This document shows, piece after piece, positions 41,912-56,310 of a stretch of DNA of 64,000 nucleotides. The position numbers were made by a program, and so were the translations under genes. The notes below the pieces were generated by a model. It saw only the letters and a program-made list of their open reading frames with translations, searched no databases and had not been told where the DNA came from. Numbering within the stretch: the first letter of the stretch is position 1; every line of letters starts with the position of its first letter. This DNA comes from Minisyncoccota bacterium (GTDB taxonomy: Bacteria; Patescibacteriota; Minisyncoccia; Phycocordibacterales; UBA2100): the NCBI GenBank assembly GCA_043780835.1, contig JAYWCB010000002.1, positions 27,466-91,465 of the forward strand, in the 5' to 3' direction.

Positions 41912-42370
41912 TTACCGCGGTGACGAACCTTGTACGATGGGCAGGTTCTCGACAATCCATTCGTTGGTCCCGCCACCGATGCGTCTCAAATTCAGATACC
42001 CGTGATGCTCGAGATAACCGTAGCCAACACCGGATTCACGTCCGCCTGCACAAATCAGCACGATCGTCTTTCCTTTTTTTGGAAACTGGGAATACCCATC
42101 AAAAAAGCGCGGAAGCGGTACATTGACCGCGCCGAGTGCATGCCCTTTTTCGTATTCGCTTCCTGATCGCACGTCAACAAACATGTACGAATCGGGATGT
42201 GCGAGAAAAGCAGCCTGAAATTCCGTGGGCGAAATATCTTTCGTAGCCGGTTCAATGATATGCAGATTCTGAAGCGGCGTAAGATAGATAATGAGCACAC
42301 TAGCAACAACGCCAATGATAAGAAAAAAGATTGCGATTAACGAAATACGCATATAAGAAAAGTATAGCAA
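41912..42370 (-). CDS. Membrane-anchored rhodanese-domain protein (sulfurtransferase-like); paralog of 53669-54196
   Basis: N-terminal TM. Rhodanese core FVDVRSGSEYEKGHALGAVNVP...IVLICAGGRES (active-site Cys loop CAGGRES). Confidence 0.7.
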   Translation of the reverse strand: MLYFSYMRISLIAIFFLIIGVVASVLIIYLTPLQNLHIIEPATKDISPTEFQAAFLAHPDSYMFVDVRSGSEYEKGHALGAVNVPLPRFFDGYSQFPKKGKTIVLICAGGRESGVGYGYLEHHGYLNLRRIGGGTNEWIVENLPIVQGSSPR

Positions 42371-43045
42371 CTATTTTAAAGTGTCGACGCGATGTATGAG
42401 CGACTGAATATAGTCAATCGCTACGCGCGTGCCGTTCCCCCTATTCCCCTGCACAAGAATGGACTTCCCCGCTCCTTCAATTACAACACCCGGCGTTGCA
42501 TCAACCCCCGCACCTTTGCCCTCAGCAATGTCGTCGTCCACAATCTTTTTCGCAACACCACTTGCAACACAGGTTCGCACGGGGGCGACTGCAATTCCGA
42601 CGGCTTCTGCTGCCGCATATCCCGCATTATCCGACTGCGACGTCGCAACAGGTTGATCAACTTTGAATAAGCGCGATACGTATTTCCAATATGTTTCTTC
42701 CCCATCAATACGCGCGATGCACTCTGCGATCTGCGCTTTCAAATATGCACCAGTATGTTCTTCGCGTGGAAAATTTTTATATATCACAACGATGCCGCCC
42801 CCATATGCAGCGTGAAGTTTTCCATAAGATCTTTCGTGAAAGTCCTTGCAGTGTGGACACTCGTAATCTGTAAATATCGTCAGTGTAATCGGCGCAGCGA
42901 GATTTCCTATCACATGCCGGGCTGCGGTGTGGACTGCCGATTGTGACTCTTGTCTACCGGTGTACACGGTCGTGAACACCAATACCGCAGTGATGACGAC
43001 TCCGATGACCGCTATCAGTGCAGTAATAAAGCGCACCGGTTTCAT
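42371..43045 (-). CDS. Membrane-anchored DsbA-like thiol:disulfide oxidoreductase; paralog of 54201-54899
   Basis: N-terminal TM. Thioredoxin CPHC active site in FTDYECPHCKDFHE. Confidence 0.7.
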   Translation of the reverse strand: MKPVRFITALIAVIGVVITAVLVFTTVYTGRQESQSAVHTAARHVIGNLAAPITLTIFTDYECPHCKDFHERSYGKLHAAYGGGIVVIYKNFPREEHTGAYLKAQIAECIARIDGEETYWKYVSRLFKVDQPVATSQSDNAGYAAAEAVGIAVAPVRTCVASGVAKKIVDDDIAEGKGAGVDATPGVVIEGAGKSILVQGNRGNGTRVAIDYIQSLIHRVDTLK

Positions 43046-43047
43046 GC

Positions 43048-44211
43048 TTATCGATTTGATCCAGTGAAGTCACGAGTCTGCCACCCAAGACGAATAAGCA
43101 ATTTCTTGAAGTTGGGATCTTTTGCCGCGAGCGCTACGAGATAGCGTTTTTTTCCTCGCGCGTCGTCTTTTTCACGCGCAAAATAACGGAACGCACTTGA
43201 ATGTTCATACGCATTGGATGCATACATCGGTGAAAGAATCTTCCTGATGTCAGCAGCGCGCTTTTCTCCGTACACTTGATTCAAAAAGCGTGCATATTGG
43301 AAGCGCGCCAGTCCGTCGTCAGGAGTACCCTTTACAACGGCGTACGAGGCAAGCACTTGAGAGAAGATATGTTCCGTTTTTTCTGGCGTACTTTCACCGA
43401 TCACCGCGAGACTACGCTCTATAGATGCGCGAAGTAACAGAGTCGGCGGTACGAGGTTTGCCGTATTGGGGTCGTCTTTCGAACGCGCGAGATTATGTTC
43501 CGCCGCATCAATACGACGGCGCAATTCTGTCAGGTATTCTTTTTGTTCGGCATCAGAAAGCTTCTGGTCTTTGCCGGTAAATGAGCGTTCAAGTTTGGTT
43601 GCATACCAATCGGCAACATACAGTTCTGAAAATGCGAGCGGATAGAAGTCTGAGGCGTATGCAAAGAGTTCGCGCTGTGTAAGCGACAGATCTTTCGGAT
43701 GGTAGAATGTTGCGAACGGAGGCTGGGAAAATATCTGATCCTCGAACACATTTCCAAATTCCTGCCAAAATCGGCCGATAGTCTGTATCGCGTATGCGCG
43801 CACAATGGGAGTGGCTTGACCGTCGCGTGCAATATTCATGTACAAATCAATTGCACCACCCACATTGCCGCGATCATACTCCGCGAGTCCGATTTTATAT
43901 CGTATTTGATCTTTTTGTTCTTTATCAGGCGCAGTGCCGATTGCCGATTGATAGAGCGCGATTGCGCTCGTTGCATTACCGAGCCGGCGCTGGTTTTCTG
44001 CATCTGCAAATGAGCCATTCCCTTGCATGAGATGCATGTAGGGGTCATTGGTACTGGTGTATTTGCTTTTGCTCGGAAAAATCCCACTCAAAGGAATCCC
44101 CATAAGAGTGAGCACAAGAAAAACCACAACGATAATCGCAAGGATTGCTCCGAGCGCATTTCGAATCGGGTGTTTTCGTACGGTGGTTTCGGGTTTCATG
44201 TATTGAATCAT
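43048..44211 (-). CDS. N-terminally anchored helical-repeat (TPR-like) protein; paralog of 54907-56031
   Basis: N-terminal TM. Shared block IRYKIGLAEYDRGNVGGAIDLYMNIA vs IRFKIALATEESGDFANAIAQYKSIA. Confidence 0.4.
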   Translation of the reverse strand: MIQYMKPETTVRKHPIRNALGAILAIIVVVFLVLTLMGIPLSGIFPSKSKYTSTNDPYMHLMQGNGSFADAENQRRLGNATSAIALYQSAIGTAPDKEQKDQIRYKIGLAEYDRGNVGGAIDLYMNIARDGQATPIVRAYAIQTIGRFWQEFGNVFEDQIFSQPPFATFYHPKDLSLTQRELFAYASDFYPLAFSELYVADWYATKLERSFTGKDQKLSDAEQKEYLTELRRRIDAAEHNLARSKDDPNTANLVPPTLLLRASIERSLAVIGESTPEKTEHIFSQVLASYAVVKGTPDDGLARFQYARFLNQVYGEKRAADIRKILSPMYASNAYEHSSAFRYFAREKDDARGKKRYLVALAAKDPNFKKLLIRLGWQTRDFTGSNR

Positions 44212-44492
44212 CCATCATCTGCGTCACCTGATCCACCTGCATCGCCTCCACAATCATCATCGTCGCCACCGGTTGACACATCGACCACTATCGCCTCTGC
44301 ATGAGCAACGGGCACATCGAGGTGAACTCTATCTGCTATCAAAGCGTGCTCGGGATCGTGAATGGATGTGTGAGGACTGATTGCAAAAAAAAGACCGAGA
44401 AAACTGAAAAAGATTCCGCTCGCCCACGAGACTTGTTTGATCAGACGTTTTGCGCGGCGCTCGATGAATACCATGCATTCATCATATCTCAA
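44208..44492 (-). CDS. Small membrane-anchored peptide with Gly/Asp/Cys-rich C-terminal tail; paralog of 56035-56310
   Basis: Basic N-terminus, TM helix ASGIFFSFLGLFFAISP, conserved VAHAEAIVVDVS, tail TGGDDDDCGGDAGGSGDADDG. First gene of the minus-strand operon. Confidence 0.4.
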   Translation of the reverse strand: MRYDECMVFIERRAKRLIKQVSWASGIFFSFLGLFFAISPHTSIHDPEHALIADRVHLDVPVAHAEAIVVDVSTGGDDDDCGGDAGGSGDADDG

Positions 44493-45930
44493 TTACATGA
44501 AGGAATGGGCACCTGCTGGGGAAAAGGTTTTTCAAGCGAAGACTATCGGCCTGATATACACTACTGCCATGTTTCGTTTCAGGCGCATCGGCGAGTACTA
44601 CAAACGCCTCTTTTCAGTTTCTGAAATTGAAACGACACCGGTGCTGCAATGGATGTGCGGTGTCACACTCCTCTTCTTTTACGCCACCTTCACGCGCTGG
44701 ATTTACAGCGATGAAGCCACGATTGATGCGGTGAATCGCGGCGCCGCATACTGCTGGCCGTATTTTCAAAGCTGTCACGCTCTCTTTTTCCTGCATAGCT
44801 TACCTTACAGCTACGTGCAGATGACCTTTTACATGGGACTGCTTGTCAGTATGTGCGCAACCGTGTACGCAATGTGGAAAAAACGGTGGGCGCTGGTACA
44901 CGCACTCCTCTCGATACTTTTTGCATGGAAGCTGTGGGTGATGTTTGTGCTTTCATACGAGATTTCGGGCAATTACGACTACTACCACGTGTTCCTCACC
45001 TTTTTACTCCTTGTGGTGCCGCATAAAGAGTATTTCCTCAAACTATGCTTCGTGGTTCTCTATTTCCTTTCCGTTACAACAAAATTTCATCAAACGTGGA
45101 TCCTGGGCAGCTACTTTACGTCGCTCCATACCGGTACGCCTCTTTTTCCTGATGCGGTTGCGCCCCTGCTCACCAATACCGTGATCTTTATGCAGGTTAT
45201 CGGCAGTTGGTTTTTAATCAGCAGGAACTGGCCGCTACAACGCCTCTCGCTTACATACTTCACGATATTCCATTTGTATTCGGGGATTCTCGTGCGCTAC
45301 CTCTATCCCTCGATCGCACTTACCGCACTCCTCGTATTGTTTGGGCCCCTCTATCGGTACACGCCACCGCCGCGATCCTTACTCAAAGCGCTGCCGGGAG
45401 CACTGCTCATTCTTACGCAGTTCGCATTTCAGATGCCTGCTCATTTCATAGTCGGTGATCAGAAACTGACGCTCGAGGGTAATAAGTACGGCATGTACAT
45501 GTTCGAAGCGAATCATCAATGTATCGGGCATATGAAATATATTGAGCGACGCGACGGTCCGGTTGCGGAAACGTTTTCTCAGATTCCACCCGGTACACAA
45601 TGTCCGGGAGGGTCGTGTGTGACGAAGCGCCACACATACGCAGACGGAGCGTACACTGTGCGCGAAGAAACATGGGAGTCAGCCGTCGCTTGGAACCGCT
45701 GCGATCCCTATTTGTTCTGGCAGCGGACTCGTCGATTTTGTGAGTTGCCGCGGGCGGTACGGGTCGATATGCAGTTCGACCACTCAATAGACGGCGGGCC
45801 ATTTTATCGCATTATCGATGAGCGAGATATTTGCGGCCTCACCTATCATCCGTTCGTGCACAATAATTGGATTCTGCTTCCACCCGACGCAAAGATCGTC
45901 GGCTATCCCGTCCAAAATATCTTGCGATAA
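44437..45930 (+). CDS. Large polytopic membrane protein with Cys-containing C-terminal soluble domain (possibly HTTM/vitamin-K-carboxylase-like). Start uncertain (maybe 44572).
   Basis: About 8-10 TM helices, then conserved C-domain (ANHQC...QFDHSIDGGPFYRI.DE..IC.L.Y). Paralogous to the next gene. Confidence 0.4.
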   Translation: MIRRFARRSMNTMHSSYLNYMKEWAPAGEKVFQAKTIGLIYTTAMFRFRRIGEYYKRLFSVSEIETTPVLQWMCGVTLLFFYATFTRWIYSDEATIDAVNRGAAYCWPYFQSCHALFFLHSLPYSYVQMTFYMGLLVSMCATVYAMWKKRWALVHALLSILFAWKLWVMFVLSYEISGNYDYYHVFLTFLLLVVPHKEYFLKLCFVVLYFLSVTTKFHQTWILGSYFTSLHTGTPLFPDAVAPLLTNTVIFMQVIGSWFLISRNWPLQRLSLTYFTIFHLYSGILVRYLYPSIALTALLVLFGPLYRYTPPPRSLLKALPGALLILTQFAFQMPAHFIVGDQKLTLEGNKYGMYMFEANHQCIGHMKYIERRDGPVAETFSQIPPGTQCPGGSCVTKRHTYADGAYTVREETWESAVAWNRCDPYLFWQRTRRFCELPRAVRVDMQFDHSIDGGPFYRIIDERDICGLTYHPFVHNNWILLPPDAKIVGYPVQNILR

Positions 45931-45933: not shown

Positions 45934-47760
45934 ATGCCTACAACGTCACCAACATTTATTGTATTAACAGAGCTTGTAGGACACGCTCCCGCGTCTCTCA
46001 ATCAAATACAGGCTGTGATTGCACCGCATGTGCATTCCCTGACGGTAACGTGGCTCGCGCTGTGGTGTACAGCGCTTGTCTTTGCAATCCGAGCACTCAT
46101 CAACAAAATCCGATTTCCGGAACTCGATGTGCCGAGTACGACTCCATCGATTTCATTCGAGCTACCACCGATACTCACTCGCATACGCGTCCTGTACAGA
46201 CGATTATTCTCTGTTTCTGAAATTGAGCATTCGCTCGTACTCAGATGGCTCTATGGGGCGATGCTGTTCGGATTCTTTACCTCGTTTGGAAATTGGATAC
46301 TTGATTCGTCGATCACCGCAGAAACTGCTTCGAAAGGTGCGCAGATCTGCTGGACGTATTTTCCGCAGTGTGGTCAGTGGTATGTGCTGCATACCCTGCC
46401 CTACGGATACTCATATACGAGTGTATACATGGTGCTGTACGCCGTCATGCTTGCCTGCGTTTTTGCGATGTGGAAGAAATCGTGGACGTCTGCGCATGCA
46501 TTGATGATGATCCTCTTTGTGTGGAAAGTGCTTGTGATGTTCGTGCTCACCGCTTCTATTCAGGGTGGCCCGAACTACCACCATGTACTGATCACCTTCG
46601 TGCTCTTATTTCTCCCGTATAAGGAGTTTTTCGCGCGCGTGTCGTTTGTCGTCATGTATTTCTTGTCGGCAGTCATCAAGCTTGATGAATCGTGGATACT
46701 GGGCGAATATTTTACATCGCTTCAGTCCGGACTGCCCGTGTTCGGAAACACACTTGCGCCCATCTTTACCAACGCGGTCATCGGCATGCAGATCATTTTG
46801 GGATGGTTTTTGCTCAGTGGAAGAAGTCGCATCCAAAAAACGGCGCTCGTGTGCTTTAGCGTGTTCCATATCTATGCAGGTATTTTTGTCGGGTACACGT
46901 ATCCCATACTCGCGCTCTCCATGCTGTGGATTCTGTTTGGACCACTGTTTCACGTAAGTACAATCCCGCTTAACCGTCGTTCGGTGGCAGGATGGATAAC
47001 ACTCATCGCGCTTTTTGCATTTCATGCACCGGCACATCTCATAGAAGGCGATCAGCGAATGACACAAGAAGGAAGTCGCTTCGGATTGAATTTATTTGAC
47101 GCGAATCATCAGTGTGCGAGTACCCTCTCGATCTACGCTACATCGAGTACACCTGTGCGCGATACGCAATGGTCCGCAAAACCGCGGCAAACCTGTGGTG
47201 ATTATATTTGTCTCACCACCACGATTACGCACGAAGCCGACGACATGGTTGTAACGCGCGAACGGTGGGAATCTCCCGTATCGTGGCAACGGTGTCGCGT
47301 ATCTACGTTTTGGTCAATTGCAAAACAACAGCATTGCAGCGATCCGGGTGTGCTTCGCGTGCAGATGCAATTTGATCACTCAATTGACGGTGGACCGTTT
47401 TACCGCATCGTAGACGAGCAGAATATTTGCACACTTTCATATCAGACATTTAGCCACAACGGCTGGATAAAAATGCCACCAGAAGCACCCATCGTCGGAT
47501 ATCCGGTCAAAAATGTTTTCCGCTACCAGCGTCAAAGCGGCAGCGCGTTCAATGAACGTGCCCCTCAAATTTCTACGTCTTCAGATATCATCGCGCTCAA
47601 CGAACTCGTGGGTAACGATCGGATACAGCGCACCAGTCTCCAGAGCGCGGTTGCGCCATACTTTCCGGTGCTCGTGTTCTTCTGGCGCGTTATCTGGACA
47701 ATGATGTGTGCACTCGTGATCAGTCGCGTGTGGTTTGCATATCAGCGAACCAAAAAATAA
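45934..47760 (+). CDS. Paralog of 44437-45930: large polytopic membrane protein (HTTM-like?) with extra C-terminal TM
   Basis: Colinear similarity, e.g. RLFSVSEIE, HVLITFVLLFLPYKEFF, QFDHSIDGGPFYRIVDE. Confidence 0.4.
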   Translation: MPTTSPTFIVLTELVGHAPASLNQIQAVIAPHVHSLTVTWLALWCTALVFAIRALINKIRFPELDVPSTTPSISFELPPILTRIRVLYRRLFSVSEIEHSLVLRWLYGAMLFGFFTSFGNWILDSSITAETASKGAQICWTYFPQCGQWYVLHTLPYGYSYTSVYMVLYAVMLACVFAMWKKSWTSAHALMMILFVWKVLVMFVLTASIQGGPNYHHVLITFVLLFLPYKEFFARVSFVVMYFLSAVIKLDESWILGEYFTSLQSGLPVFGNTLAPIFTNAVIGMQIILGWFLLSGRSRIQKTALVCFSVFHIYAGIFVGYTYPILALSMLWILFGPLFHVSTIPLNRRSVAGWITLIALFAFHAPAHLIEGDQRMTQEGSRFGLNLFDANHQCASTLSIYATSSTPVRDTQWSAKPRQTCGDYICLTTTITHEADDMVVTRERWESPVSWQRCRVSTFWSIAKQQHCSDPGVLRVQMQFDHSIDGGPFYRIVDEQNICTLSYQTFSHNGWIKMPPEAPIVGYPVKNVFRYQRQSGSAFNERAPQISTSSDIIALNELVGNDRIQRTSLQSAVAPYFPVLVFFWRVIWTMMCALVISRVWFAYQRTKK

Positions 47761-47782: not shown

Positions 47783-47800
47783 CTAAAACCGTCATTTCAA

Positions 47801-48145: not shown

Positions 48146-49891
48146 ATGTCGCTACTCGCTGCTCGTGATCGTATTAAACGTGCAATCGAAACACGCGCAT
48201 ATGTAGATGTCAGACAAGGTACGATCGTTCAAAGAAACAAACAGGTGAAGACTGAAGGGTGGCTTATCGATATTCGTTCAATACTACTCGATTCTGATGT
48301 ACTCTCTGACATAGCGGAAGTATTTTGGGACTCGTTTCGAGAAATGAACGATGTGCAGATCGGCGGCATTGAAACTGCCGCTATCCCGCTCATTACCTCG
48401 CTTGTTACACATGCAAAGACGTATGCACAGCGCGAACACACATCGGGATTTTATATACGCAAATCACGAAAGAAAGACGGGCTTCTTAAAATGATCGAAG
48501 GAACACTCGTACCGGATGTGCCAGTGATACTCGTAGATGATCTCATCAATAGCGGACAAAGCCTGATTCGTCAGGTTGAAGTTTTACGCGATCACGGCAC
48601 AGCGGTGCACGCGGTGTGGACCCTTGTGCGATTCCGGGATCCTGAATTCTATACGTATTTTTCAGAGCGGAATATTCCAATATATTCGCTATTCACGCTC
48701 AACGATTTTCACGATTCACTTGGCCTGAGCAATCGGACAAGTGGTGCGCTCGACGAGCGATACGCGCCGTTTCGCGTGCTATGGCGGTACGGCTCGCCAC
48801 GCCCGAGTTACCAACACGTGGTTCCAAAATCTGATCCCGTAATCGACGAGCAGCTACTGTTTATTGGATCTGACACCGGTCACATGCGTGCCTTGCGCCA
48901 AAAAGACGGTGGTATCGCGTGGGAGTTTAAAACCGGCACACACGCACACGGCAAAGGTATTTTTTCTACACCAGCGCTCCACAATGGAGTTCTCTATTTC
49001 GGATCGTATGACGGCAATGTATACGCCCTCGATGCAATGACGGGTCGCACGAAATGGACCTATTGGGATGCGGACTGGGTCGGTTCATCGCCCACTCTTG
49101 CACCCGATCTCGGGATACTCTTTATTGGATTGGAATTCGGATTATGGAGAAAACGCGGCGGCATTGCCGCACTCGATATGCGTACCGGAAAGACGGCGTG
49201 GGAACATATAATGCCGTGCTATACGCACTCATCTCCACTGTATATTCCAAAACACGCGCAGGTCGTTATTGGAAGCAATGACGGCGCAGTGTATTTGTAC
49301 AACGCATCCACCGGCACGCTTCTGTGGAAATATGAAAAAGCCGCCCTCACCGCACGCGAGCTCGAAACGGGATTCGGTGAGCGCGACATCAAAGAATCAT
49401 TTGCCTACGACGCAGCGCGCGACATCATTCTGTTTGGCGCCATGGACGGCACGCTGACCGCGCTCGAGCGCTCAACAGGGAGAGCGCTGCGGTCATTCCA
49501 GGCAGAATTCGGCATCTATTCAACCCCCATTATTCACGGTGATACCGTTATTTTTAGCTCTCTCGATAAACATCTGTATTGCCTCAATATTGATACTTTA
49601 GAATTGAAATGGAGGTGGTACGCAGGTGCTCGTCTATTTGCCACGCCAGTTATCATGGGCGGCATGATATATATCGGTGCCAATACCGGGAGATTAACCG
49701 TACTCGACGCTGAATCAGGCCTCGCTCGCACTTATTTCACCGTAAGCGAACGAATCACAAATAGGATTGCATTCAACCCGATCACGCGACATCTTTTTCT
49801 CACAACGTTTGCCAACGAGGTGTACTGCCTTGAGCAACCACCATCAATGGCAGATATTACGAACCTGCCGGCTCGTACCACTGTGGAATAA
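48146..49891 (+). CDS. Orotate-PRTase-like (type I PRTase) domain fused to a PQQ-repeat beta-propeller; paralog of 58610-60253
   Basis: PRPP-binding loop PVILVDDLINSGQSL, PyrE-like IRKSRKKDGLLKMIEG. Then repeated DGNVYALDAMTGRTKW / DGAVYLYNASTGTLLW / DGTLTALERSTGRAL propeller blades. Confidence 0.55.
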   Translation: MSLLAARDRIKRAIETRAYVDVRQGTIVQRNKQVKTEGWLIDIRSILLDSDVLSDIAEVFWDSFREMNDVQIGGIETAAIPLITSLVTHAKTYAQREHTSGFYIRKSRKKDGLLKMIEGTLVPDVPVILVDDLINSGQSLIRQVEVLRDHGTAVHAVWTLVRFRDPEFYTYFSERNIPIYSLFTLNDFHDSLGLSNRTSGALDERYAPFRVLWRYGSPRPSYQHVVPKSDPVIDEQLLFIGSDTGHMRALRQKDGGIAWEFKTGTHAHGKGIFSTPALHNGVLYFGSYDGNVYALDAMTGRTKWTYWDADWVGSSPTLAPDLGILFIGLEFGLWRKRGGIAALDMRTGKTAWEHIMPCYTHSSPLYIPKHAQVVIGSNDGAVYLYNASTGTLLWKYEKAALTARELETGFGERDIKESFAYDAARDIILFGAMDGTLTALERSTGRALRSFQAEFGIYSTPIIHGDTVIFSSLDKHLYCLNIDTLELKWRWYAGARLFATPVIMGGMIYIGANTGRLTVLDAESGLARTYFTVSERITNRIAFNPITRHLFLTTFANEVYCLEQPPSMADITNLPARTTVE

Positions 49892-50726
49892 CATTCACGG
49901 TTCTAGTTTCGGTAATTGTGGTAGGTGTAGCACCGGCTTTTGAATGGCAGAAGAGTGTGTAATCGGTGCGACTCGTGATCGGACTGGTGACTTTCCCTGA
50001 AGGACCCGAGCCTGAAGAAATTCCTGACGTATCCCACGAACCGGTACGACTCCCTGCGGTGCCGTCGCCGTTTGTGCCATGCACCGTGCAGTCACGTACA
50101 TTTGTTACGTTCCAGTAGACGCGTGATGGATCTCCTGAACGTACGAGTGACGGCCGGACTTCGAGATGCCCTGAGGCACTGAATCCTTGCGTCGTGGTAA
50201 ATCCTATAAATTGTGGTGATTGTGGTGGTAGACACGCATTGCCTTGTGCGGTGTACCCGACCGGACATGCTGGACATGCCCCCAATCTGTCGGGCAGGGA
50301 TCCATCCCAACAGGTTGATGCGTACGTGCTTTCGTATGAGCTTTCTGCGGGACCGGAGGCTTGAGAAGGTCCGGAGGCTTGAGAAGGTCCGGAGGCTTGA
50401 GGTGGAGGATATGCGGCTTCGTAGTAACTCGTAACAGGACCGGAGTCTTGTGGTGGCGGATATGAGGCTTGGTAGTAGCTTTGGTAGTACGCCTGATAGT
50501 ACGCCTGATAGTACGCTTCGTAGTAGTCTACGACAGATCCGCCAGATGCGGGCACAACTTGTAAACCCGATGGCGTGGTATCAGTGAAGCGAGCCTCGGC
50601 TGAAACTGCAACATGATGATTCGACACCCCATTCAAGAGAAAATATGCAATTGCAAAAATTGCCGCCGCAAATAATCCATACCGCAGAAAACGGAATACG
50701 GGGCGCCGATGCGTGTGATGAACCAT
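49857..50726 (-). CDS. Anchored Tyr/Gln/Ser-rich repetitive surface protein
   Basis: N-terminal TM. YYQAYYQAYYQSYYQASY and (GPSQAS)n repeats encoded by DNA tandem repeats. Confidence 0.4.
   Translation of the reverse strand: MVHHTHRRPVFRFLRYGLFAAAIFAIAYFLLNGVSNHHVAVSAEARFTDTTPSGLQVVPASGGSVVDYYEAYYQAYYQAYYQSYYQASYPPPQDSGPVTSYYEAAYPPPQASGPSQASGPSQASGPAESSYESTYASTCWDGSLPDRLGACPACPVGYTAQGNACLPPQSPQFIGFTTTQGFSASGHLEVRPSLVRSGDPSRVYWNVTNVRDCTVHGTNGDGTAGSRTGSWDTSGISSGSGPSGKVTSPITSRTDYTLFCHSKAGATPTTITETRTVNVIPQWYEPAGS
50353..50404. repeat. 18-bp tandem repeat (ccggaggcttgagaaggt) x about 2.8 inside CDS
   Basis: Direct perfect repeats encoding GPSQAS units. Confidence 0.55.
50467..50530. repeat. 12-bp tandem repeat (gcctgatagtac and variants) x about 5 inside CDS
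   Basis: Direct repeats encoding AYYQ units. Confidence 0.5.
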
Positions 50727-50747
50727 ACGTACTACAATTGTACTTCA

Positions 50748-52004
50748 TCAATGCGTCTCTAGAGGAGCGGCTGTGTATAGCGAAGCCCGTCTACCAAGAC
50801 AGACATCGGAATATTTTTTATCAAGCGAGCCGCATCGTTGCGCACGCACAGATGCATCCGGGATGTATATCGAAATACTAGTGGCTAAATCGTTAAAACA
50901 AAAATCCTTTGAACCGTCATCAGCAAGCGTACTGCAAAAACGGAGCGATAATTTCGGATCGGCATCCCCTCCCCAAAAAAAATAGGAGAGTGCATACGAT
51001 TCGCACGCATACGCATCTTCACGTGCTTGAACCAGGTGACACAGACTTTCAACGCGTCGCAACTGCTCATCGGAAAATACACCCTGATCCAGTTTTCGGA
51101 TGTCTTTTTCCCCGACGACACTTACGAAATCTTTTCCAAAACCACCGATACATGAACTGCGGTCCGATCCAAACGGAAGTGCAGTACACGCGCGCATTGC
51201 ATCAGCAAACTTAGACGTGTCTTTCGTACGGAAATCAGATCCTACTGCCGCCAAAAGATGCGGAGTGATGTACACATAACATCGTGCCTTTGCACTCTGC
51301 GGAATAAGCCGCGTCGAGCATGGCGCGAGTGGATCTGAGGCGGTGAAATACGTGGCGTTTGCCTTTTTCCATAGCTCTCGGTCATGGCCGCCCCCGCCCA
51401 CTAATTCCATTATGGATCCTCCGATACACTCCTGCGATTGCATATATTTCCATTCAGCCGTACCGGTTTTCGAACAAAAGCTGATTGTCTTTTCCAAGGA
51501 ATACCCATAATAGGCAAGTACACCATGACCAAGCCCGTGGTAACACATGCCATATGCGCTTTTCCCGCCCGGTGCTTTTTTACATGCAGTGTCGATCATG
51601 GCGCGCACGTCGTCTCCGTCACCGAATTCCTGCAGCGTATCGACGACAATCGAATGTGAGCAACCATTTCTGAATTCCTGCGTGCAGATTGACATGCCGT
51701 CGATTCCCTTCTGTGCATAGAGTTTATGTCCGATTGCATGTGCAACGAGATGAATATCTGTATTCGGCGGAATTACCGCATACCGAAGCACACCGAATGC
51801 GTATTCGGCACCTTTTTTATCGGCAATGTCTTCGAATCGTTTTACGAGCACATCAAATGTCGGATTATCCGCCGCAATAGTCTTTACTTCCGCATATGTT
51901 GCCTCACCGTCGGCCACGTGTACCTTTGACTCTTTTAGATATGCCCCAGCGGCACCCGCGAGCAGTACGAGCAATACAACTATCAGATGTTTCGTCGAAG
52001 TCAT
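50748..52004 (-). CDS. Large secreted Cys-rich hypothetical protein
   Basis: Signal/TM MTSTKHLIVVLLVLLAGAAGA. About 18 Cys. Confidence 0.4.
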   Translation of the reverse strand: MTSTKHLIVVLLVLLAGAAGAYLKESKVHVADGEATYAEVKTIAADNPTFDVLVKRFEDIADKKGAEYAFGVLRYAVIPPNTDIHLVAHAIGHKLYAQKGIDGMSICTQEFRNGCSHSIVVDTLQEFGDGDDVRAMIDTACKKAPGGKSAYGMCYHGLGHGVLAYYGYSLEKTISFCSKTGTAEWKYMQSQECIGGSIMELVGGGGHDRELWKKANATYFTASDPLAPCSTRLIPQSAKARCYVYITPHLLAAVGSDFRTKDTSKFADAMRACTALPFGSDRSSCIGGFGKDFVSVVGEKDIRKLDQGVFSDEQLRRVESLCHLVQAREDAYACESYALSYFFWGGDADPKLSLRFCSTLADDGSKDFCFNDLATSISIYIPDASVRAQRCGSLDKKYSDVCLGRRASLYTAAPLETH

Positions 52005-52034: not shown

Positions 52035-52817
52035 TTATTCACGAATCCCCTTTGCTGTGGCTGCTGATTCTATTTTCTGTAGATTTTGATGTGCTGCGTT
52101 TCGTAACGTTTCAAGGCCGGTTTCTGCCGCATCCGGAGCATTTCCGGGATATGCTGCGTGCCACTGTGCAGGTGTAATACCATCAACCGCCGCTGTTGCA
52201 CGCCGTGCCGCAACAAGCGCTTCGCGCAGTTTTCCTTGTTCAAAAAAGATCGTAGCGCGCACGCTCAGAAGCCATGGATTGTCTGGATACCGACTAAGTC
52301 CCGCGTCGACTACGATAAGCGCTTCGTCCAGCTTTCCTGTTTTGATCAAAACCCAGGCATAGTCTGTTCGGCCTTCCCAACCACCGGGATTCAGCTCCAC
52401 ATACGTTTTGTAATCTCGGGCGGCAGCATTGTAATCATTGAGATACCCCTCTATAAGACCGCGTAGATAGTACGCACTTGAACGAGATGTGTGGGTGTTA
52501 TTTTGGATTTCAATATTTACTTCTGCAAGTGCTTCGTGATACTCGCCGTTCAAAAAATGAATCCGCGCCAATTGATGGTGCACGAGCGGATATTGTGGAT
52601 CCAGGTGCGCCGCCCGTGAAAAGAAATATGCAGCTTCCGCTAAATCATATTCTGACTCATTCGGTCGGTCGATATGCTGCAGGCCGTATGTATAGGCGAG
52701 CTCTGCGCGCGGATGAAGTTTGAGATGCAGTCGTTCCCGTATGGCTCCGGGATCAATAAGAAATAGTCCGATAATAAATACAGCGGCTACAGTACATGAA
52801 ACGAGGGAGCGAGTCAT
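52035..52817 (-). CDS. N-terminally anchored TPR-repeat protein (paralog of 41096-41908)
   Basis: TM plus TPR; shared YPDNPWLLSVRATIFFEQGK block. Start trimmed to MTRSLV. Confidence 0.5.
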   Translation of the reverse strand: MTRSLVSCTVAAVFIIGLFLIDPGAIRERLHLKLHPRAELAYTYGLQHIDRPNESEYDLAEAAYFFSRAAHLDPQYPLVHHQLARIHFLNGEYHEALAEVNIEIQNNTHTSRSSAYYLRGLIEGYLNDYNAAARDYKTYVELNPGGWEGRTDYAWVLIKTGKLDEALIVVDAGLSRYPDNPWLLSVRATIFFEQGKLREALVAARRATAAVDGITPAQWHAAYPGNAPDAAETGLETLRNAAHQNLQKIESAATAKGIRE

Positions 52818-52833
52818 GAGCGCATTGTACTGT

Positions 52834-53637
52834 TTAGCGCGTACTAGATGTCGCGTTCTTTTGTATAGCCGCATGGATAAGCTTGATATTTCCCGCTATT
52901 GCTTCGCGCAGTTTTTCTATACCCTTTGCACCCATAGAAGGGTCGTTGCCTGGATTTACTTTGGCCCAATCATCTGGTTCAAGCAGTTGCGCCGCTTTGG
53001 CGGCTGATTCTGCAACGGCACGTGATTCATCGTAACGACCCATCTCATAGAGCGCCGTCGCTTTACTGTTCAGCAGCCATGCGTTTCCCGGTGTATATGC
53101 CAAGCCGGTGTCGAGCGCGACAAGCGCCTCCGTAAATTTATGCTCCTTCAGTAATATCCATGCGTAATCGTTGAATCCCGGCCAATTGTGCGACCCGCCT
53201 TTTAAGTATGTTTCGTAATCAGCCTGCGCCTCGGGATATTTGCCGAGGAATCCGTACGTAAGAGCGCGTACATAATACGAACTCGGTCTGGAATCAGGGT
53301 GGAGGTTTATTTGCAGTGTAATTTCGGCTAGCGCGGCATTGAGCATCCCTATGATGAACGACGTTCTCGCGAGCTCATGATATGCCATCGGATAGTTCGG
53401 ATCGAGTGCGACGGTTTTTAAATAGTACTGTCGCGCTCGACGAACATCGTATGCGCGATTCGGGACGGGTCCAAAATGATGCTCGGCAATTTCAAAAGCG
53501 TGTGCCGCCGTCGGTGAATGCATAAACGACACGTCTTCGTACGTATTTAAGATTTTTGTGCGCAAGGGCATTCGAAATGCGATCGCAAATACGACAGCAC
53601 ATAAAGACACAACAAGCATCATCTGTCGCGTGACCAT
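52834..53637 (-). CDS. N-terminally anchored TPR-repeat protein (third paralog)
   Basis: TM plus TPR; TPGNAWLLNSKATALYEMGR block. Start trimmed to MVTRQM. Confidence 0.5.
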   Translation of the reverse strand: MVTRQMMLVVSLCAVVFAIAFRMPLRTKILNTYEDVSFMHSPTAAHAFEIAEHHFGPVPNRAYDVRRARQYYLKTVALDPNYPMAYHELARTSFIIGMLNAALAEITLQINLHPDSRPSSYYVRALTYGFLGKYPEAQADYETYLKGGSHNWPGFNDYAWILLKEHKFTEALVALDTGLAYTPGNAWLLNSKATALYEMGRYDESRAVAESAAKAAQLLEPDDWAKVNPGNDPSMGAKGIEKLREAIAGNIKLIHAAIQKNATSSTR

Positions 53638-53668
53638 GACGCAAGTATACTGCGGTTCCCTCGCGGTG

Positions 53669-54196
53669 TTACTGATGCTCATCGACACCGGAAAATCCAT
53701 GTGGAATGTTATTTCCTTCTATCGGCAGTCCTTCGAGTGACCAATTTTCGAGCCCTCCTTTGATGCGAATAAGATTGAGAAAGCCCCAATTTTCCAAATA
53801 TCCATACGCGATTCCGGCAAGCCTGCCGCTCGTGCAAATCAGCGCAATCTTTTTACCGTGCTTCGGCAAGGTAAAATGTTCATCAATGAGATTTTCAATC
53901 GGTATATTTATCGCGCCAACTGCGTGGGCGGAATTGTAGACAGTCGTCGATCGCACATCGATCAACATATACTGATCGCGGTGCTGAGAATAATCAGCAT
54001 AAAACTCCTTCGGATCGATATCGTTTGATATCGGGGCGATCAGTGTGAGGTGTTTGAGTGGCGTCAGATAGATGAGCAGTATCGTCACAACAATGACGCC
54101 GATGAGTGATGCAATAAACATGAAGCGATCATCGAAAAGACTTACAGAGCCGTCTGCCTCTGCTTTTGCTCGATTCGAAAAATATCGTTTTAACAT
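53669..54196 (-). CDS. Membrane-anchored rhodanese-domain protein (paralog of 41912-42370)
   Basis: LIDVRSTTVYNSAHAVGAINIP...IALICTSGRLAG (Cys loop CTSGRLA). Confidence 0.7.
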   Translation of the reverse strand: MLKRYFSNRAKAEADGSVSLFDDRFMFIASLIGVIVVTILLIYLTPLKHLTLIAPISNDIDPKEFYADYSQHRDQYMLIDVRSTTVYNSAHAVGAINIPIENLIDEHFTLPKHGKKIALICTSGRLAGIAYGYLENWGFLNLIRIKGGLENWSLEGLPIEGNNIPHGFSGVDEHQ

Positions 54197-54200: not shown

Positions 54201-54899
54201 TTATTTTTTCCCTAAGAGATAGCTGATACTCGTCGCAATCTGCGAACGGTAATCCCCTTTTATGATGATACTGCGTCCTGCGGATTTCAAAACAATAGAC
54301 GGTGTTACGTCGAGTCCGGCAATTGCACCTTGGACCATGTCACGCCTTACCCGATCGGCGGGAGTTTGATTTTTTACACATTGATCGAATGACGCCGGAT
54401 TGACCCCGACGTTCACTGCGAAACGCGTGAGCGTCACCGGATCGACTGGTCCCTCGAGCCGAGGAGAGCTGTAGACATCTGTTACGAAGGTATCAAATGC
54501 CGCCGCGCCACGATCATTAAATACGCACTCGGCGGCAATCGCCTCACCATACGCACCCGTGTGCTTTGGCAGCGGCAGATGACGAAATGCGATCAATAAT
54601 GTATTGGCGAACTCTTTCTGCAATGCGGGGAGAGTCTGCAAATAGAGATGTTTGCAATACGGACAATCAAGATCCGAATACACAATCATTTGAACCGGAG
54701 CTTTCAAATCACCGGAATATATATGATCGTCTGCGGCCACACCAATAACCGCAAGCGGTGATTGATCATCAACGGTCCGGACCTGTTCGAGCGCACGCTT
54801 ATTATGCAAAACAGCCAGTAGAATAAATACACCGATACCGACCGCAGAAATTACTAAGATTAGAATTTTCGAATCACGTTTGATTTTGGAACTTCGCAT
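54201..54899 (-). CDS. Membrane-anchored DsbA-like thiol:disulfide oxidoreductase (paralog of 42371-43045)
   Basis: CPYC active site in YSDLDCPYCKHLY. Confidence 0.7.
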   Translation of the reverse strand: MRSSKIKRDSKILILVISAVGIGVFILLAVLHNKRALEQVRTVDDQSPLAVIGVAADDHIYSGDLKAPVQMIVYSDLDCPYCKHLYLQTLPALQKEFANTLLIAFRHLPLPKHTGAYGEAIAAECVFNDRGAAAFDTFVTDVYSSPRLEGPVDPVTLTRFAVNVGVNPASFDQCVKNQTPADRVRRDMVQGAIAGLDVTPSIVLKSAGRSIIIKGDYRSQIATSISYLLGKK

Positions 54900-54906: not shown

Positions 54907-56031
54907 TTACTGTGCGAAGTCGCTTGGCTGCCAGCCGAGCGATATCAGATACGCCTTGAATGAAGGTGCAATATCGGCAATTTTAATCAGTGCCATATGA
55001 TTATATTGCGCCTGATTGTTTCTTCGAACACTTCTGAAGAAGCCTTCGACTGATTGAACATACGTATTTTTAACACCCGTCACAGGTTTGAGCGTGGACA
55101 CGGTAGATATAATTTCGTCCGCTCGCGATTCGCCATAGAACGTCGCGAGTGCAGCCGCGTATAAATAGCGCGGGTAGCTGTCCTGCCCCGGTACGGTGGC
55201 GGCAGTAGCTGAAAGGCTGAGCGCGTCTCGGAAAGGCGCAATCACGTCCTCAATCTTTGCAACACCTGCAGTCGCAAGTTTACGCTCCACAATTCCTTCT
55301 CTTGTGAGGGCATCTATAAGCGGACCGGTTTCGTTTGCATCTTTGCGCATGCGATCAAGCTCGGGTTGCGCCTGCGATTGTAGTTCTTTAATTTTCGCGA
55401 TGTCTGCAATGCCTGCGGGACTGGTACTTGCGTTGTGTAATGTTTTTGATAGGTCCGTCGCATACCAATCCGCTTGACGCATAAGAGAAGGAGCGAGCAG
55501 GTAGAGCGAAGAAGCGTACTCATTCAAGCGTCTGAGCGCCATTTCGGTATCGACACCTTGCGCCATCTCTGCGTAGGGTGAATCTTTGAAAATCTCATCG
55601 CTCACCTCAGGATGGGAATAATTATATGTGTAGTAGAACGATGCGAGCTGTTGCACGGCATACGCTCTTATTTGCTTGAAATATCGCTCATTTGAAGCGA
55701 TTGATTTATATTGAGCTATAGCGTTGGCAAAATCCCCGCTCTCCTCAGTCGCGAGCGCAATTTTAAACCGAATTTGTGCTTCTGCTTGCGGATCAGAAGC
55801 ATTGGCAAGAGATGCCTGAAGTGCCTGCTTTGCCTCATCATACTGGCCTGCTTTCATGAGAGTCATCGCGTGAGAAAACGACTGATCTTCTTGGGTCAGT
55901 ACTTTATACGGCGTGCGAGATGCATCGTATTGATTTTGAGATCTTACGGCGGCAAACCAATACACCAAAAGTGCAACCGCGATAACGAAGAGGACGCCGA
56001 GTGCGAGTGATATATCTTTTCGTAGATTCAT
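54907..56031 (-). CDS. N-terminally anchored helical-repeat (TPR-like) protein (paralog of 43048-44211)
   Basis: TM plus helical repeats. Confidence 0.4.
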   Translation of the reverse strand: MNLRKDISLALGVLFVIAVALLVYWFAAVRSQNQYDASRTPYKVLTQEDQSFSHAMTLMKAGQYDEAKQALQASLANASDPQAEAQIRFKIALATEESGDFANAIAQYKSIASNERYFKQIRAYAVQQLASFYYTYNYSHPEVSDEIFKDSPYAEMAQGVDTEMALRRLNEYASSLYLLAPSLMRQADWYATDLSKTLHNASTSPAGIADIAKIKELQSQAQPELDRMRKDANETGPLIDALTREGIVERKLATAGVAKIEDVIAPFRDALSLSATAATVPGQDSYPRYLYAAALATFYGESRADEIISTVSTLKPVTGVKNTYVQSVEGFFRSVRRNNQAQYNHMALIKIADIAPSFKAYLISLGWQPSDFAQ

Positions 56032-56034: not shown

Positions 56035-56310
56035 TTAGCCGCAACTACCGCCACTACCACCACTATCACATCCGGATCCACTGTCACTTCCTCCGGCGCT
56101 TCCGGCTCCGGAGTCAACCACTTCTGCGTGAACAGTTCCTGCGCCCAACACAGTGTCGCTCAAATGAGCAGATGATTTTGGCGAAGCCGTATAAAAGAGT
56201 ACGGTAAAAAATCCCACGGCTATGATGGAAGCTGCGGTTATCTTTCGGTAGTATCTGGAAAACGTCGAAATACCTTGTACGAGAAATGCCATATACGTAT
56301 TATTCCACAA
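56035..56310 (-). CDS. Small anchored peptide with Gly/Ser/Cys-rich C-terminal tail (candidate RiPP/TOMM-type precursor)
   Basis: TM AASIIAVGFFTVLFYTASP, conserved TVHAEVVDS, tail GAGSAGGSDSGSGCDSGGSGGSCG. Divergent from the YcaO-SagB genes. Confidence 0.45.
   Translation of the reverse strand: MWNNTYMAFLVQGISTFSRYYRKITAASIIAVGFFTVLFYTASPKSSAHLSDTVLGAGTVHAEVVDSGAGSAGGSDSGSGCDSGGSGGSCG

What the first reader, a model, noticed from the sequence alone, without database searches (positions are those of the whole stretch)
48146..49891. Orotate-PRTase-like domain fused to PQQ-type beta-propeller, present twice (48146-49891, 58610-60253)
The N-terminal about 200 aa carry the type I PRTase PRPP loop (VILVDDLINSGQS) and PyrE-like flexible-loop region (IRKSRKKDG). 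The C-terminal about 380 aa are 6-8 PQQ/BamB-like propeller blades (DGxVYALDAxTGxxxW). Such a fusion is atypical: PRTases are cytosolic nucleotide-salvage enzymes and PQQ propellers are usually extracytoplasmic. Co-conservation with both redox cassettes suggests a dedicated role, such as a ribosylated/nucleotidylated intermediate, or propeller-mediated substrate recognition.
Basis: seen in the sequence. Interest (0 to 1): 0.55.

Follow-up and report, generated by a model that had tools for sequence, protein, structure and literature searches.

The report
PRTase–propeller hub of CPR peptide-maturation system
The two genes really do encode an orotate-phosphoribosyltransferase-like domain fused to an eight-bladed propeller, and this uncharacterised protein is the constant cytoplasmic partner of a previously undescribed peptide-modification system, found only in tiny Parcubacteria (CPR) bacteria, that decorates small membrane-anchored Gly/Asp/Cys-rich peptides.

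Summary
48146-49891 (581 aa) and 58610-60253 (547 aa) are paralogues, 40% identical. Each has an N-terminal OPRT-like type I PRTase domain with invariant PRPP-loop and flexible-loop residues, and a C-terminal 8-bladed BamB-type propeller. Neither has a signal peptide or shows a PQQ-dehydrogenase signature.

The family ("FUS") appears restricted to Patescibacteria/Parcubacteria and has no dedicated Pfam or NCBIfam model. It sits in a conserved island, often between rpsJ and rplC. Its usual neighbours are:
- small N-terminally anchored peptides with an AxAD(A/V)P motif and a Gly/Asp/Ser/Cys-rich tail;
- membrane-anchored TPR-like proteins;
- variable tailoring modules: YcaO+SagB (window cassette 2), or polytopic membrane proteins with a vitamin-K-dependent γ-carboxylase fold plus DsbA/rhodanese (cassette 1).

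Elsewhere the same PRTase–propeller unit is fused to Asp/Asn β-hydroxylase, HlyC acyltransferase or formyltransferase domains, and the PRTase domain to a radical-SAM domain.

Best reading: FUS is the constant cytoplasmic hub of this maturation system. The propeller probably docks peptide or partner enzymes, and the PRTase domain probably performs or senses a PRPP-dependent step. Membership of the system is well supported; the chemistry is inferred. I rate it a new variant of RiPP-type systems, of high interest.

The parts
48146..49891 (+). FUS copy 1: OPRT-like PRTase (about residues 1-200) fused to an 8-bladed propeller (about 210-565). It is the 'long' subtype, with a helical insert in blade 5.
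58610..60253 (+). FUS copy 2, 'short' subtype. It starts 13 nt after the SagB stop, so it is probably co-transcribed with YcaO and SagB.
56400..57839 (+). YcaO cyclodehydratase of the TOMM/SagD type, with a Pro-rich C-terminus
57814..58596 (+). SagB-family FMN dehydrogenase
44497..45930 (+). Polytopic membrane protein MEM-1 with a vitamin-K-dependent gamma-carboxylase (GGCX)-like fold and a Cys-rich C-terminal domain
45934..47760 (+). MEM-2, a paralogue of MEM-1 (GGCX-like)
44208..44492 (-). Precursor-like peptide 1: K/R-rich N-terminus, one TM helix, linker, VAHAEA motif, then tail IVVDVSTGGDDDDCGGDAGGSGDADDG. The likely start is at 44474.
56035..56310 (-). Precursor-like peptide 2: one TM helix, TVHAEV motif, then tail VDSGAGSAGGSDSGSGCDSGGSGGSCG, which resembles a microcin-B17 core
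43048..44211 (-). p387: N-terminally anchored TPR-like protein of the 'p380' family, the most frequent neighbour of FUS
54907..56031 (-). p374: paralogue of p387 (30% identity)
42371..43045 (-). Membrane-anchored DsbA-like thioredoxin, cassette 1
41912..42370 (-). Membrane-anchored rhodanese, cassette 1
41096..41908 (-). Membrane-anchored TPR protein, cassette 1
40593..41099 (-). p168: conserved unknown protein. It is the last gene of the island and lies 10 bp upstream of rplC.
54201..54899 (-). Membrane-anchored DsbA-like thioredoxin, cassette 2
53669..54196 (-). Membrane-anchored rhodanese, cassette 2
52035..53700 (-). Two membrane-anchored TPR proteins, cassette 2 (52035-52874 and 52834-53700)
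49857..52004 (-). p289 (Tyr/Gln-repeat anchored protein, 49857-50726) and p418 (Cys-rich anchored protein, 50748-52004), both recurrent in related loci

Best explanation
FUS is the constant cytoplasmic component (a 'hub') of a Parcubacteria-specific maturation system for small ribosomally made peptides.

The substrates are peptides of about 70-110 aa. Each has a short K/R-rich N-terminus, one TM helix, a linker, a conserved AxAD(A/V)P motif and a Gly/Asp/Ser/Cys-rich tail.

In the cytoplasm, FUS works with interchangeable tailoring enzymes. In cassette 2 these are YcaO+SagB, which would make azol(in)es from Cys/Ser/Thr. Elsewhere the partners are Asp/Asn beta-hydroxylase, HlyC acyltransferase, formyltransferase or radical-SAM domains. 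After export, GGCX-like membrane enzymes (cassette 1), DsbA/DCC, rhodanese and anchored TPR proteins would act on the tail outside the membrane.

Within FUS, the 8-bladed propeller most likely docks the precursor and/or the partner enzyme. This would fill the place of the missing E1-like/RRE 'C' protein of classical YcaO systems. The OPRT-like domain, whose PRPP-binding and catalytic-loop residues are invariant, most likely binds PRPP and transfers phosphoribose to a nucleophile on or associated with the peptide.

Shown: the architecture, the residue conservation, the gene neighbourhood and the domain fusions. Inferred: the docking role, the cytoplasmic location, PRPP use and the acceptor.
For: 1. 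Catalytic potential. R105, K106, R108, K109, E118, G119, D131, D132, G137, R164, D42 and E76 are invariant in 26 diverse members. They align with the flexible loop and PRPP loop of solved OPRTases.
2. Neighbourhood. In the 53 species-level loci with at least 7 kb upstream, the counts are precursor 40, p380 39, TPR 39, YcaO 32, SagB 33 and MEM 22. All 53 have at least one of precursor, p380, YcaO or MEM. YcaO-SagB-(MEM-MEM)-FUS are often collinear with gaps under 150 bp.
3. Reverse check. In MEM-anchored metagenome loci with flanks of at least 5 kb, FUS is present in 10 of 15.
4. Precursor specificity. The precursor pattern occurs only at the two cassettes in the whole 64 kb window.
5. Tail composition tracks the enzymes. 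Tails within 4 kb of a YcaO are richer in Cys (p = 0.0026) and in Cys+Ser+Thr (p = 1.5e-5). Tails without a nearby YcaO are more acidic (p = 0.0017).
6. FUS subtype tracks the module. The 'long' subtype goes with MEM and the 'short' subtype with YcaO/SagB (odds ratio 14.5, p = 0.0012). The window holds one of each, which fits cassette-specific physical partners.
7. Domain fusions. Among the best 150 representatives of the PRTase domain, most are 520-580 aa fusions. The longer ones add Asp_Arg_Hydrox (4), HlyC (3), Formyl_trans_N (1), Radical_SAM (1) or an extension of about 700 aa (3; weak AMMECR1 match in one).
8. A telling locus. In L165 the FUS-AspH fusion is followed directly by an Asp/Asn-rich, Cys-free precursor and a p380 homologue.
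9. No alternative docking protein. No E1-like or ThiF partner is detectable in the island.
10. Location. FUS, YcaO and SagB have no hydrophobic segment, whereas every minus-strand product has one N-terminal TM.
Against: - No biochemical data exist, and neither PRPP binding nor an acceptor has been tested.
- The PRTase scores lie below the curated OPRT cutoffs, and the conserved residues might serve ligand binding only.
- Net charge of the propeller is about 0, so a simple electrostatic fit to acidic tails is not evident.
- I had no coordinates and could not check whether the PRTase site faces the propeller.
- The statistics on loci are not corrected for phylogenetic relatedness.
- The precursors carry an N-terminal TM rather than a classical leader, so they may be mature anchored surface proteins rather than RiPP precursors in the strict sense.
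- The fused architectures are rare, mostly single 50%-identity cluster representatives from metagenomes.
Confidence: 0.55

Rival explanations
1. FUS is a purely non-catalytic adaptor or regulator. The PRTase fold has been recruited as a ligand-binding or structural module, as in PyrR, PurR or GfcR, or as in the ATP-inactive E1-like 'C' protein of TOMM synthetases. It may sense PRPP or a nucleotide. The propeller scaffolds the precursor and the tailoring enzymes. No phosphoribosyl transfer to the peptide occurs.
For: FUS occupies the position of the missing C protein in YcaO-SagB-FUS operons. Its fusion to many unrelated tailoring domains resembles the behaviour of RRE adaptor domains. PRTase scores are below the family cutoffs. 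There is a weak hit to the GfcR regulator model.
Against: The invariance of the two catalytic-loop Lys/Arg pairs and of the DD pair across about 40%-identical sequences is more than a scaffold needs. It is still compatible with ligand sensing.
Confidence: 0.3
2. FUS is the organism's ordinary orotate (or other nucleobase) phosphoribosyltransferase for nucleotide salvage. It merely carries a propeller for localisation, and its position next to the cassettes is incidental.
For: The closest solved relatives are genuine OPRTases. OPRT-family hood residues (the D-x-R motif) are kept. CPR bacteria depend on salvage (general knowledge). purD lies in the same window, so PRPP metabolism exists.
Against: There are two diverged copies, one per cassette. 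Linkage to the peptide system is near-universal across 53 of 53 well-flanked loci. FUS subtype co-varies with the tailoring module. FUS is fused to protein-modifying domains. No pyr genes are adjacent. The pyrE equivalog score is 61 against a cutoff of 106.8.
Confidence: 0.07
3. The propeller is a quinoprotein (PQQ or another quinone) redox domain. It would serve the neighbouring thiol/quinone redox proteins (DsbA, rhodanese, GGCX-like), with the PRTase domain making or binding a cofactor.
For: There are Pfam PQQ-family hits. The neighbours include DsbA, DCC and a GGCX-like enzyme whose homologue uses a quinol.
Against: TIGR03075 scores 72.6 bits against a 480 cutoff and covers only about 130 residues. 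The best fold matches are the BamB and Cake scaffolds. FUS has no signal peptide while the redox partners are extracytoplasmic. CPR genomes are reported to lack PQQ synthesis (preprint 10.64898/2026.07.10.737718). FUS is equally linked to YcaO-only loci.
Confidence: 0.03

Closest known systems
Orotate phosphoribosyltransferase (PyrE, type I PRTase; e.g. M. tuberculosis 5hkf, C. diphtheriae 2p1z, human UMPS OPRT domain 2wns)
   Same: The fold is the same. FUS keeps the PRPP loop (VILVDDLINSGQS against VLVVEDTSTTGNS), the flexible catalytic loop (IRKSRKKDGL..IEG against VRKSAKAHGM..IEG) and the hood motif (ID.R).
   Different: FUS scores below the curated cutoffs, is fused to a propeller, and its loop is more basic. 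It sits in a peptide-maturation island, is duplicated per cassette, and no pyrimidine genes are nearby.
BamB / YxaL / AfsK-type 8-bladed PQQ-like propellers (non-quinoprotein scaffolds)
   Same: An 8-bladed propeller with TM 0.8-0.94 to BamB and to the Cake8 design, and strong PF13360/PF13570 hits.
   Different: FUS has no lipoprotein signal and is cytoplasmic. The host is a CPR bacterium, in which an outer-membrane BAM role is not expected (background knowledge, not tested). FUS also has extra strongly conserved loops (GLEFGLxRKRGG, TERITN, DIKES).
TOMM/LAP synthetase (McbBCD, SagBCD): YcaO 'D', dehydrogenase 'B' and E1-like/RRE 'C' acting on Gly/Ser/Cys-rich cores such as microcin B17
   Same: Cassette 2 has a SagD-type YcaO, a SagB dehydrogenase and a Gly/Ser/Cys-rich C-terminal core. 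CPR LAP clusters (YcaO plus nitroreductase) were noted by Sharrar et al. 2020 (PMC7298704).
   Different: No E1-like or RRE protein is present, and FUS takes the third position. The precursors are N-terminally membrane-anchored with an AxADxP motif. The island is embedded in the ribosomal-protein gene region. The same hub also serves non-YcaO modules.
RiPP recognition element (RRE, PqqD-like) adaptor domains
   Same: FUS behaves in the same way at the genomic level: a constant module found free-standing or fused to many different tailoring enzymes such as radical SAM and cyclodehydratase partners.
   Different: The fold is entirely different and the size is about 560 aa rather than about 90. 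FUS also carries an apparently catalytic PRTase domain.
Vitamin-K-dependent gamma-glutamyl carboxylase (GGCX / HTTM) - for the neighbouring MEM proteins, not FUS itself
   Different: There is no sequence-level similarity. Catalytic residues were not mapped, and quinone availability in CPR bacteria is unknown.

Membership tests
Type I phosphoribosyltransferase (PF00156) / OPRT (TIGR00336 pyrE) | PRPP-binding loop: acidic pair followed by a small-residue loop ending in G-x-S/T | tested here: met
   VILVDDLINSGQS in copy 1 and IVLVDDLINSGQS in copy 2. D131, D132 and G137 are invariant in 26 sequences.
Type I phosphoribosyltransferase (PF00156) / OPRT (TIGR00336 pyrE) | Flexible catalytic loop with conserved Arg/Lys residues (R99, K100 and K103 in the S. 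typhimurium enzyme, numbering from memory) | tested here: met
   R105, K106, R108 and K109 are invariant. The loop aligns to VRKSAKAHG of M. tuberculosis OPRT.
Type I phosphoribosyltransferase (PF00156) / OPRT (TIGR00336 pyrE) | Score above the curated family cutoff | tested here: not met
   PF00156 scores 26.2 against 26.3 for copy 1, and copy 2 is not listed. TIGR00336 scores 61.2 and 51.1 against 106.8.
Type I phosphoribosyltransferase (PF00156) / OPRT (TIGR00336 pyrE) | Catalyses orotate + PRPP -> OMP | not testable with these tools
   This needs an enzyme assay or pyrE complementation.
PQQ-dependent dehydrogenase (TIGR03075 / TIGR03074) | Full-length match above cutoff, including the PQQ/metal-binding site | tested here: not met
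   72.6 bits against 480 and 28.9 bits against 832, with only about 130 residues matched.
BamB (TIGR03300) | 8-bladed PQQ-like propeller fold | tested here: met
   Foldseek TM is about 0.8-0.86 to the BamB structures.
BamB (TIGR03300) | Lipoprotein signal peptide, outer-membrane BAM context and score above cutoff | tested here: not met
   There is no hydrophobic N-terminus. Scores are 106 and 125 bits against 285.
TOMM/LAP biosynthetic cluster (context of copy 2) | YcaO cyclodehydratase plus SagB-type dehydrogenase | tested here: met
   PF02624 gives E = 4.9e-40, and TIGR03605 scores 114.7 against 78.4. TIGR03604 scores 146 against 219, below its cutoff.
TOMM/LAP biosynthetic cluster (context of copy 2) | Adjacent small precursor with a Cys/Ser/Thr-rich core | tested here: met
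   The 56035-56310 tail is VDSGAGSAGGSDSGSGCDSGGSGGSCG. Cys+Ser+Thr enrichment near YcaO has p = 1.5e-5 across loci.
TOMM/LAP biosynthetic cluster (context of copy 2) | E1-like/Ocin-ThiF partner with an RRE | tested here: not met
   No such hit appears among the island ORFs in Pfam or NCBIfam.
TOMM/LAP biosynthetic cluster (context of copy 2) | Azol(in)e heterocycles actually formed on the peptide | not testable with these tools
   This needs mass spectrometry of the co-expressed precursor.

The most novel reading that the evidence does not exclude
FUS is a peptide phosphoribosyltransferase and leader-recognition hub in one protein. It would dock anchored Gly/Asp/Cys-rich precursors on its propeller and use PRPP to attach ribose-5-phosphate to them. 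That would be a new PRPP-dependent post-translational modification, and a fold-unrelated functional replacement for the RRE/E1-like partner of YcaO enzymes. The system is co-located, and probably co-transcribed, with ribosomal protein genes, so it may be a core cell-surface feature of Parcubacteria rather than an antibiotic pathway.
Probability: 0.2. Interest if true: 0.9.

Novelty: new variant of a known kind. Interest (0 to 1): 0.72.

Why it matters
CPR/Parcubacteria are a large, uncultivated part of bacterial diversity with very few understood lineage-specific systems. This analysis identifies a family-level signature protein, 380 relatives among the species-representative genomes, with no functional annotation. 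It is linked to a multi-enzyme peptide-modification island placed inside the most conserved gene region of bacteria.

If the hub idea holds, it gives:
- a new kind of substrate-recruiting module for RiPP-like pathways, useful for genome mining where RRE-based tools fail;
- a candidate new PRPP-dependent peptide modification;
- a bacterial context in which a gamma-carboxylase-fold enzyme meets acidic peptide substrates;
- directly testable reagents (short precursors and soluble enzymes) for a surface structure that may mediate the host-attached lifestyle of these bacteria.

Tried and rejected
- Direct paralogy of the plus-strand genes of the two cassettes: rejected. MEM against YcaO and MEM against SagB show no similarity. 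Only FUS and the minus-strand genes are paralogous.
- Pfam and NCBIfam at permissive thresholds for MEM, p289, p418, p168, p181, p218 and p361: nothing useful.
- Profile-to-PDB sequence search for MEM: no hit. Only fold comparison worked.
- The afdb50 fold library was unavailable.
- The idea that the propeller is strongly basic, to bind acidic tails: net charge is about 0, so it is not supported by that crude measure.
- The idea that the conserved His of the AHAD motif is the phosphoribosyl acceptor: rejected, because His is replaced by N, S, Q, K or Y in many loci.
- The small Cys-rich secreted ORFs next to the FUS genes as conserved parts of the system: not conserved elsewhere.
- A SLOG/LOG-like gene downstream of FUS as a general partner: found in only 3 loci.
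- Literature searches for the fusion, for YcaO+PRTase, for HTTM+RiPP and for CPR RiPPs: no description of this protein or system. Sharrar et al. 2020 report CPR YcaO/nitroreductase 'LAP' clusters only.
- A search with the FUS-AspH fusion found no further AspH fusions among the best 120 listed hits, so that architecture is rare.
Full report
**Observation**

Both ORFs are real. Copy 1 (48146-49891, 581 aa) and copy 2 (58610-60253, 547 aa, starting at the ATG 13 nt after the preceding stop) are full-length paralogues with 40% identity, E = 8e-146.

Pfam detects the propeller strongly. PF13570 scores 153/160 bits, PF13360 108/112 bits and PF01011 61/58 bits, all above their cutoffs. The PRTase domain is detected weakly: PF00156 scores 26.2 bits against a cutoff of 26.3 in copy 1. 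NCBIfam pyrE TIGR00336 matches residues 41-187 with E = 1e-16 and 1e-13, below its equivalog cutoff. Quinoprotein and BamB equivalog models are far below their cutoffs.

A profile of 26 family members hits solved OPRTases: 2wns at 3.5e-17, 2p1z at 5e-15 and 5hkf at 7.5e-14. Residue-level alignments show three matches to the M. tuberculosis enzyme:
- the flexible loop, IRKSRKKDGLLKMIEG against VRKSAKAHGMQRLIEG;
- the PRPP loop, VILVDDLINSGQS against VLVVEDTSTTGNS;
- the hood motif, ID.R.

The AlphaFold2 model (pLDDT 88.1, pTM 0.81) has an α/β N-domain and eight four-stranded blades. Foldseek gives TM 0.94 to the 8-bladed Cake8 design and about 0.85 to BamB. Neither copy has a hydrophobic segment, so the protein is predicted to be cytoplasmic.

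**Family**

The word-indexed search found 1605 proteins (E ≤ 1e-5) among the 8000 candidates scored. The best 120 are 451-598 aa, and nearly all cover more than 90% of the query. Where they are named, the names are only 'PQQ-binding-like beta-propeller repeat protein' or hybrid BamB/OPRT labels, from Kaiserbacteria, Paceibacterota, Peribacteria and Parcubacteria.

In one genome per species (GTDB r232) there are 380 relatives. The 80 loci fetched are almost all labelled Patescibacteria groups: Kaiser-, Nomura-, Giovannoni-, Wolfe-, Adler-, Campbell- and Moraniibacteria. Two odd labels, a Bathyarchaeia MAG and an Azotimanducaceae MAG, are probably binning errors.

In 26 diverse members the residues R105, K106, R108, K109, E118, G119, D131, D132, G137, R164, D42 and E76 are invariant. 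So are many propeller positions, including unusual loops such as GLEFGLxRKRGG, DIKES, SLDK and TERITN. Conservation of this kind implies a real PRPP-type ligand site, not a decayed fold.

**Context in the window**

The two FUS genes belong to two paralogous cassettes.

On the minus strand each cassette encodes, in order:
- a small ORF (44208-44492 or 56035-56310);
- an anchored TPR-like protein (p387 or p374, 30% identical);
- a DsbA-like thioredoxin;
- a rhodanese;
- one or two TPR proteins.

Every one of these products has a single N-terminal hydrophobic segment.

The plus strands differ. Cassette 2 has a SagD-type YcaO (PF02624, E = 5e-40, with a Pro-rich C-terminus), a SagB dehydrogenase (TIGR03605, 114.7 bits against a 78.4 cutoff) and FUS2. 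Cassette 1 has two paralogous polytopic membrane proteins ('MEM') followed by FUS1. MEM has no Pfam, NCBIfam or PDB sequence match. Its AF2 model (pLDDT 84.7) matches only vitamin-K-dependent γ-carboxylase:
- Foldseek finds 14 GGCX entries with E from 6e-7 to 4e-5, TM about 0.53 and about 500 aligned columns.

The cassette-1 minus-strand operon abuts rplC with a 10-bp gap. rplD, L2 and SecY follow.

**The small ORFs**

Both small ORFs have the same design: a K/R-rich N-terminus, one TM helix, a linker of about 25 residues, a VAHAEA or TVHAEV motif, and a low-complexity tail. The two tails are:
- IVVDVSTGGDDDDCGGDAGGSGDADDG
- VDSGAGSAGGSDSGSGCDSGGSGGSCG

The same design, with consensus AxAD(A/V)P followed by a Gly/Asp/Ser/Cys tail, lies directly upstream of p380 homologues in other loci. 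A strict pattern finds it in 39 of 84 loci. In the whole 64 kb window it matches only the two cassette ORFs. A leader HMM finds it in 54 of 81 non-redundant loci, and in 40 of the 53 loci with at least 7 kb upstream of FUS.

Tail composition tracks the enzymes present:
- Tails within 4 kb of a YcaO have about twice the Cys fraction (0.097 against 0.050, p = 0.0026).
- They also have more Cys+Ser+Thr (p = 1.5e-5).
- Tails without a nearby YcaO are more acidic (p = 0.0017).

This is what one expects if YcaO/SagB heterocyclise these tails. The tails resemble microcin-B17-type cores.

**Neighbourhood statistics**

In the 53 loci with at least 7 kb upstream of FUS, the counts are p380 39, TPR 39, SagB 33, YcaO 32 and MEM 22. 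All 53 have at least one of precursor, p380, YcaO or MEM. The commonest order is TPR- p380- precursor- <> YcaO+ SagB+ (MEM+ MEM+) FUS+, and SagB often lies within 150 bp of FUS.

Ribosomal genes flank the island. S10 is present in 18 loci, L3 in 14 and EF-Tu in 8, so the island frequently lies between rpsJ and rplC.

Sampling from the other side gives the same picture. In MEM-anchored metagenome loci with at least 5 kb on both sides, FUS is present in 10 of 15, more often than YcaO at 4 of 15.

FUS subtypes co-vary with the module. The 'long' form, with a blade-5 insert as in window copy 1, goes with MEM. The 'short' form, as in copy 2, goes with YcaO/SagB (odds ratio 14.5, p = 0.0012, not corrected for phylogeny).

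**Domain fusions**

An exhaustive HMMER search with the PRTase domain alone against 1.84 billion representatives gave 2359 hits. The best 150 are mainly 520-580 aa PRTase–propeller proteins. There are also short, probably truncated ORFs and 14 longer architectures. In 12 of the 14 longer proteins the unit is joined to a further domain or extension:
- an Asp/Asn β-hydroxylase (4, at either end);
- an HlyC-type protein acyltransferase (3);
- a formyltransferase (1);
- a radical-SAM domain (1, fused to the PRTase domain; no propeller was detected in that protein);
- an extension of about 700 aa (3; one of them gives a weak AMMECR1 match).

AMMECR1-containing proteins also occur as separate neighbours in 7 loci.

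On the contig of one FUS–AspH fusion, the next gene is an 84-aa precursor with tail ...AYADVPSGGGDGFGGFDSDSSAGGGDVTGDGNGVDGNGDVSA. This tail is Asp/Asn-rich and Cys-free, which suits an Asp/Asn hydroxylase. A p380 homologue follows it.

A constant module that appears alone or fused to many different side-chain-modifying enzymes behaves like RRE adaptor domains in RiPP pathways.

**Interpretation**

The best-supported reading is that FUS is the constant cytoplasmic hub of a Parcubacteria-specific system that matures small anchored peptides.

Shown here:
- the architecture;
- the invariant PRPP and catalytic-loop residues;
- the tight, bidirectional gene linkage;
- the covariation of FUS subtype with module type;
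- the fusions to tailoring domains.

Inferred:
- The propeller docks the precursor and/or the partner enzymes. No E1-like or RRE partner for the YcaO is detectable.
- The PRTase domain uses PRPP.
- The acceptor is unknown.

I put about 0.8 on FUS belonging functionally to this peptide system. I put about 0.35 on catalytic phosphoribosyl transfer, and about 0.2 on transfer to the peptide itself.

The rivals are:
- a non-catalytic adaptor or PRPP sensor (0.3);
- an ordinary salvage OPRT (0.07), disfavoured by the duplication per cassette, the fusions and the linkage;
- a quinoprotein redox role (0.03), disfavoured by the scores, the fold matches, the cytoplasmic location and the reported absence of PQQ synthesis in CPR.

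**What is known**

Sharrar et al. 2020 (PMC7298704) reported 110 antiSMASH 'LAP' clusters (YcaO plus nitroreductase) in CPR genomes, including 51 Parcubacteria. The passages examined did not mention the PRTase–propeller protein, the anchored precursors or the GGCX-like proteins. No searched paper describes the fusion. No Pfam or NCBIfam model covers the family as such.

I therefore classify it as a new variant of a known kind: a RiPP/TOMM-type maturation system with an unprecedented hub protein and anchored substrates. It overlooked what the cassettes actually are.

**Caveats**

- All functional statements are computational.
- The locus statistics ignore phylogenetic non-independence.
- ORF calling in related loci was mechanical.
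- The GGCX similarity is at fold level only.
- The fused architectures are rare metagenomic sequences.
- I could not inspect model coordinates or run complex prediction.

Noticed in passing
[not shown]
   Followed up: partly
window 39809-44492 (-); related loci L001, L003, L006, L010, L033 and others: The island sits at the head of the S10 ribosomal operon. The run precursor-p387-DsbA-rhodanese-TPR-p168 ends 10 bp before rplC. In 18 related loci rpsJ lies on the far side of the island. This is a conserved insertion of 15-25 kb between rpsJ and rplC, which are normally adjacent (background knowledge).
   Followed up: partly
window 44208-44492 (-) and 56035-56310 (-); 54 of 81 related loci: This is an apparently undescribed family of small N-terminally anchored peptides with an AxAD(A/V)P motif and Gly/Asp/Ser/Cys (sometimes Tyr/Gln) tails. 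Some tails are extreme, for example 38 acidic residues out of 57 in L006.
   Followed up: yes
window 37135-37803 (-): An alpha/beta-hydrolase gene (PF00561, E = 1e-26) lies inside the run of ribosomal protein genes just downstream of L2. That is an unusual place for such a gene.
   Followed up: no
window 20630-21949 (-): A complete purD (GAR synthetase; the GARS_N, A and C domains are all strong) is present. Most CPR genomes are thought to lack de novo purine synthesis. The neighbouring ORFs at 21959-23945 were not examined.
   Followed up: no
window 47801-48028 (-) and 60303-60596 (-): Two small Cys-rich ORFs with signal-peptide-like N-termini (both ...AQAQSR / ...ALAQSR) flank the two FUS genes. 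They are not conserved in the related loci searched.
   Followed up: partly
window 47760-47790 (+): A perfect GC-rich hairpin (aaaaacccgggcgaacccgggttt) follows directly after the MEM-2 stop. It looks like a terminator and implies that FUS copy 1 has its own promoter, unlike copy 2.
   Followed up: no
L003 11715-12218 (+); also L015 and L064: A SLOG cluster-4 (LOG/DprA-like) protein, from a superfamily that includes nucleotide phosphoribohydrolases, overlaps the stop codon of FUS in L003, and homologues occur in two further loci. This may hint at nucleotide-type chemistry, but it is rare.
   Followed up: partly
window 17790-20600 (-): A 936-aa protein has a TraG/TraD-type coupling-protein C-terminal domain. 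It may be a remnant of conjugation or type IV secretion in a CPR genome.
   Followed up: no
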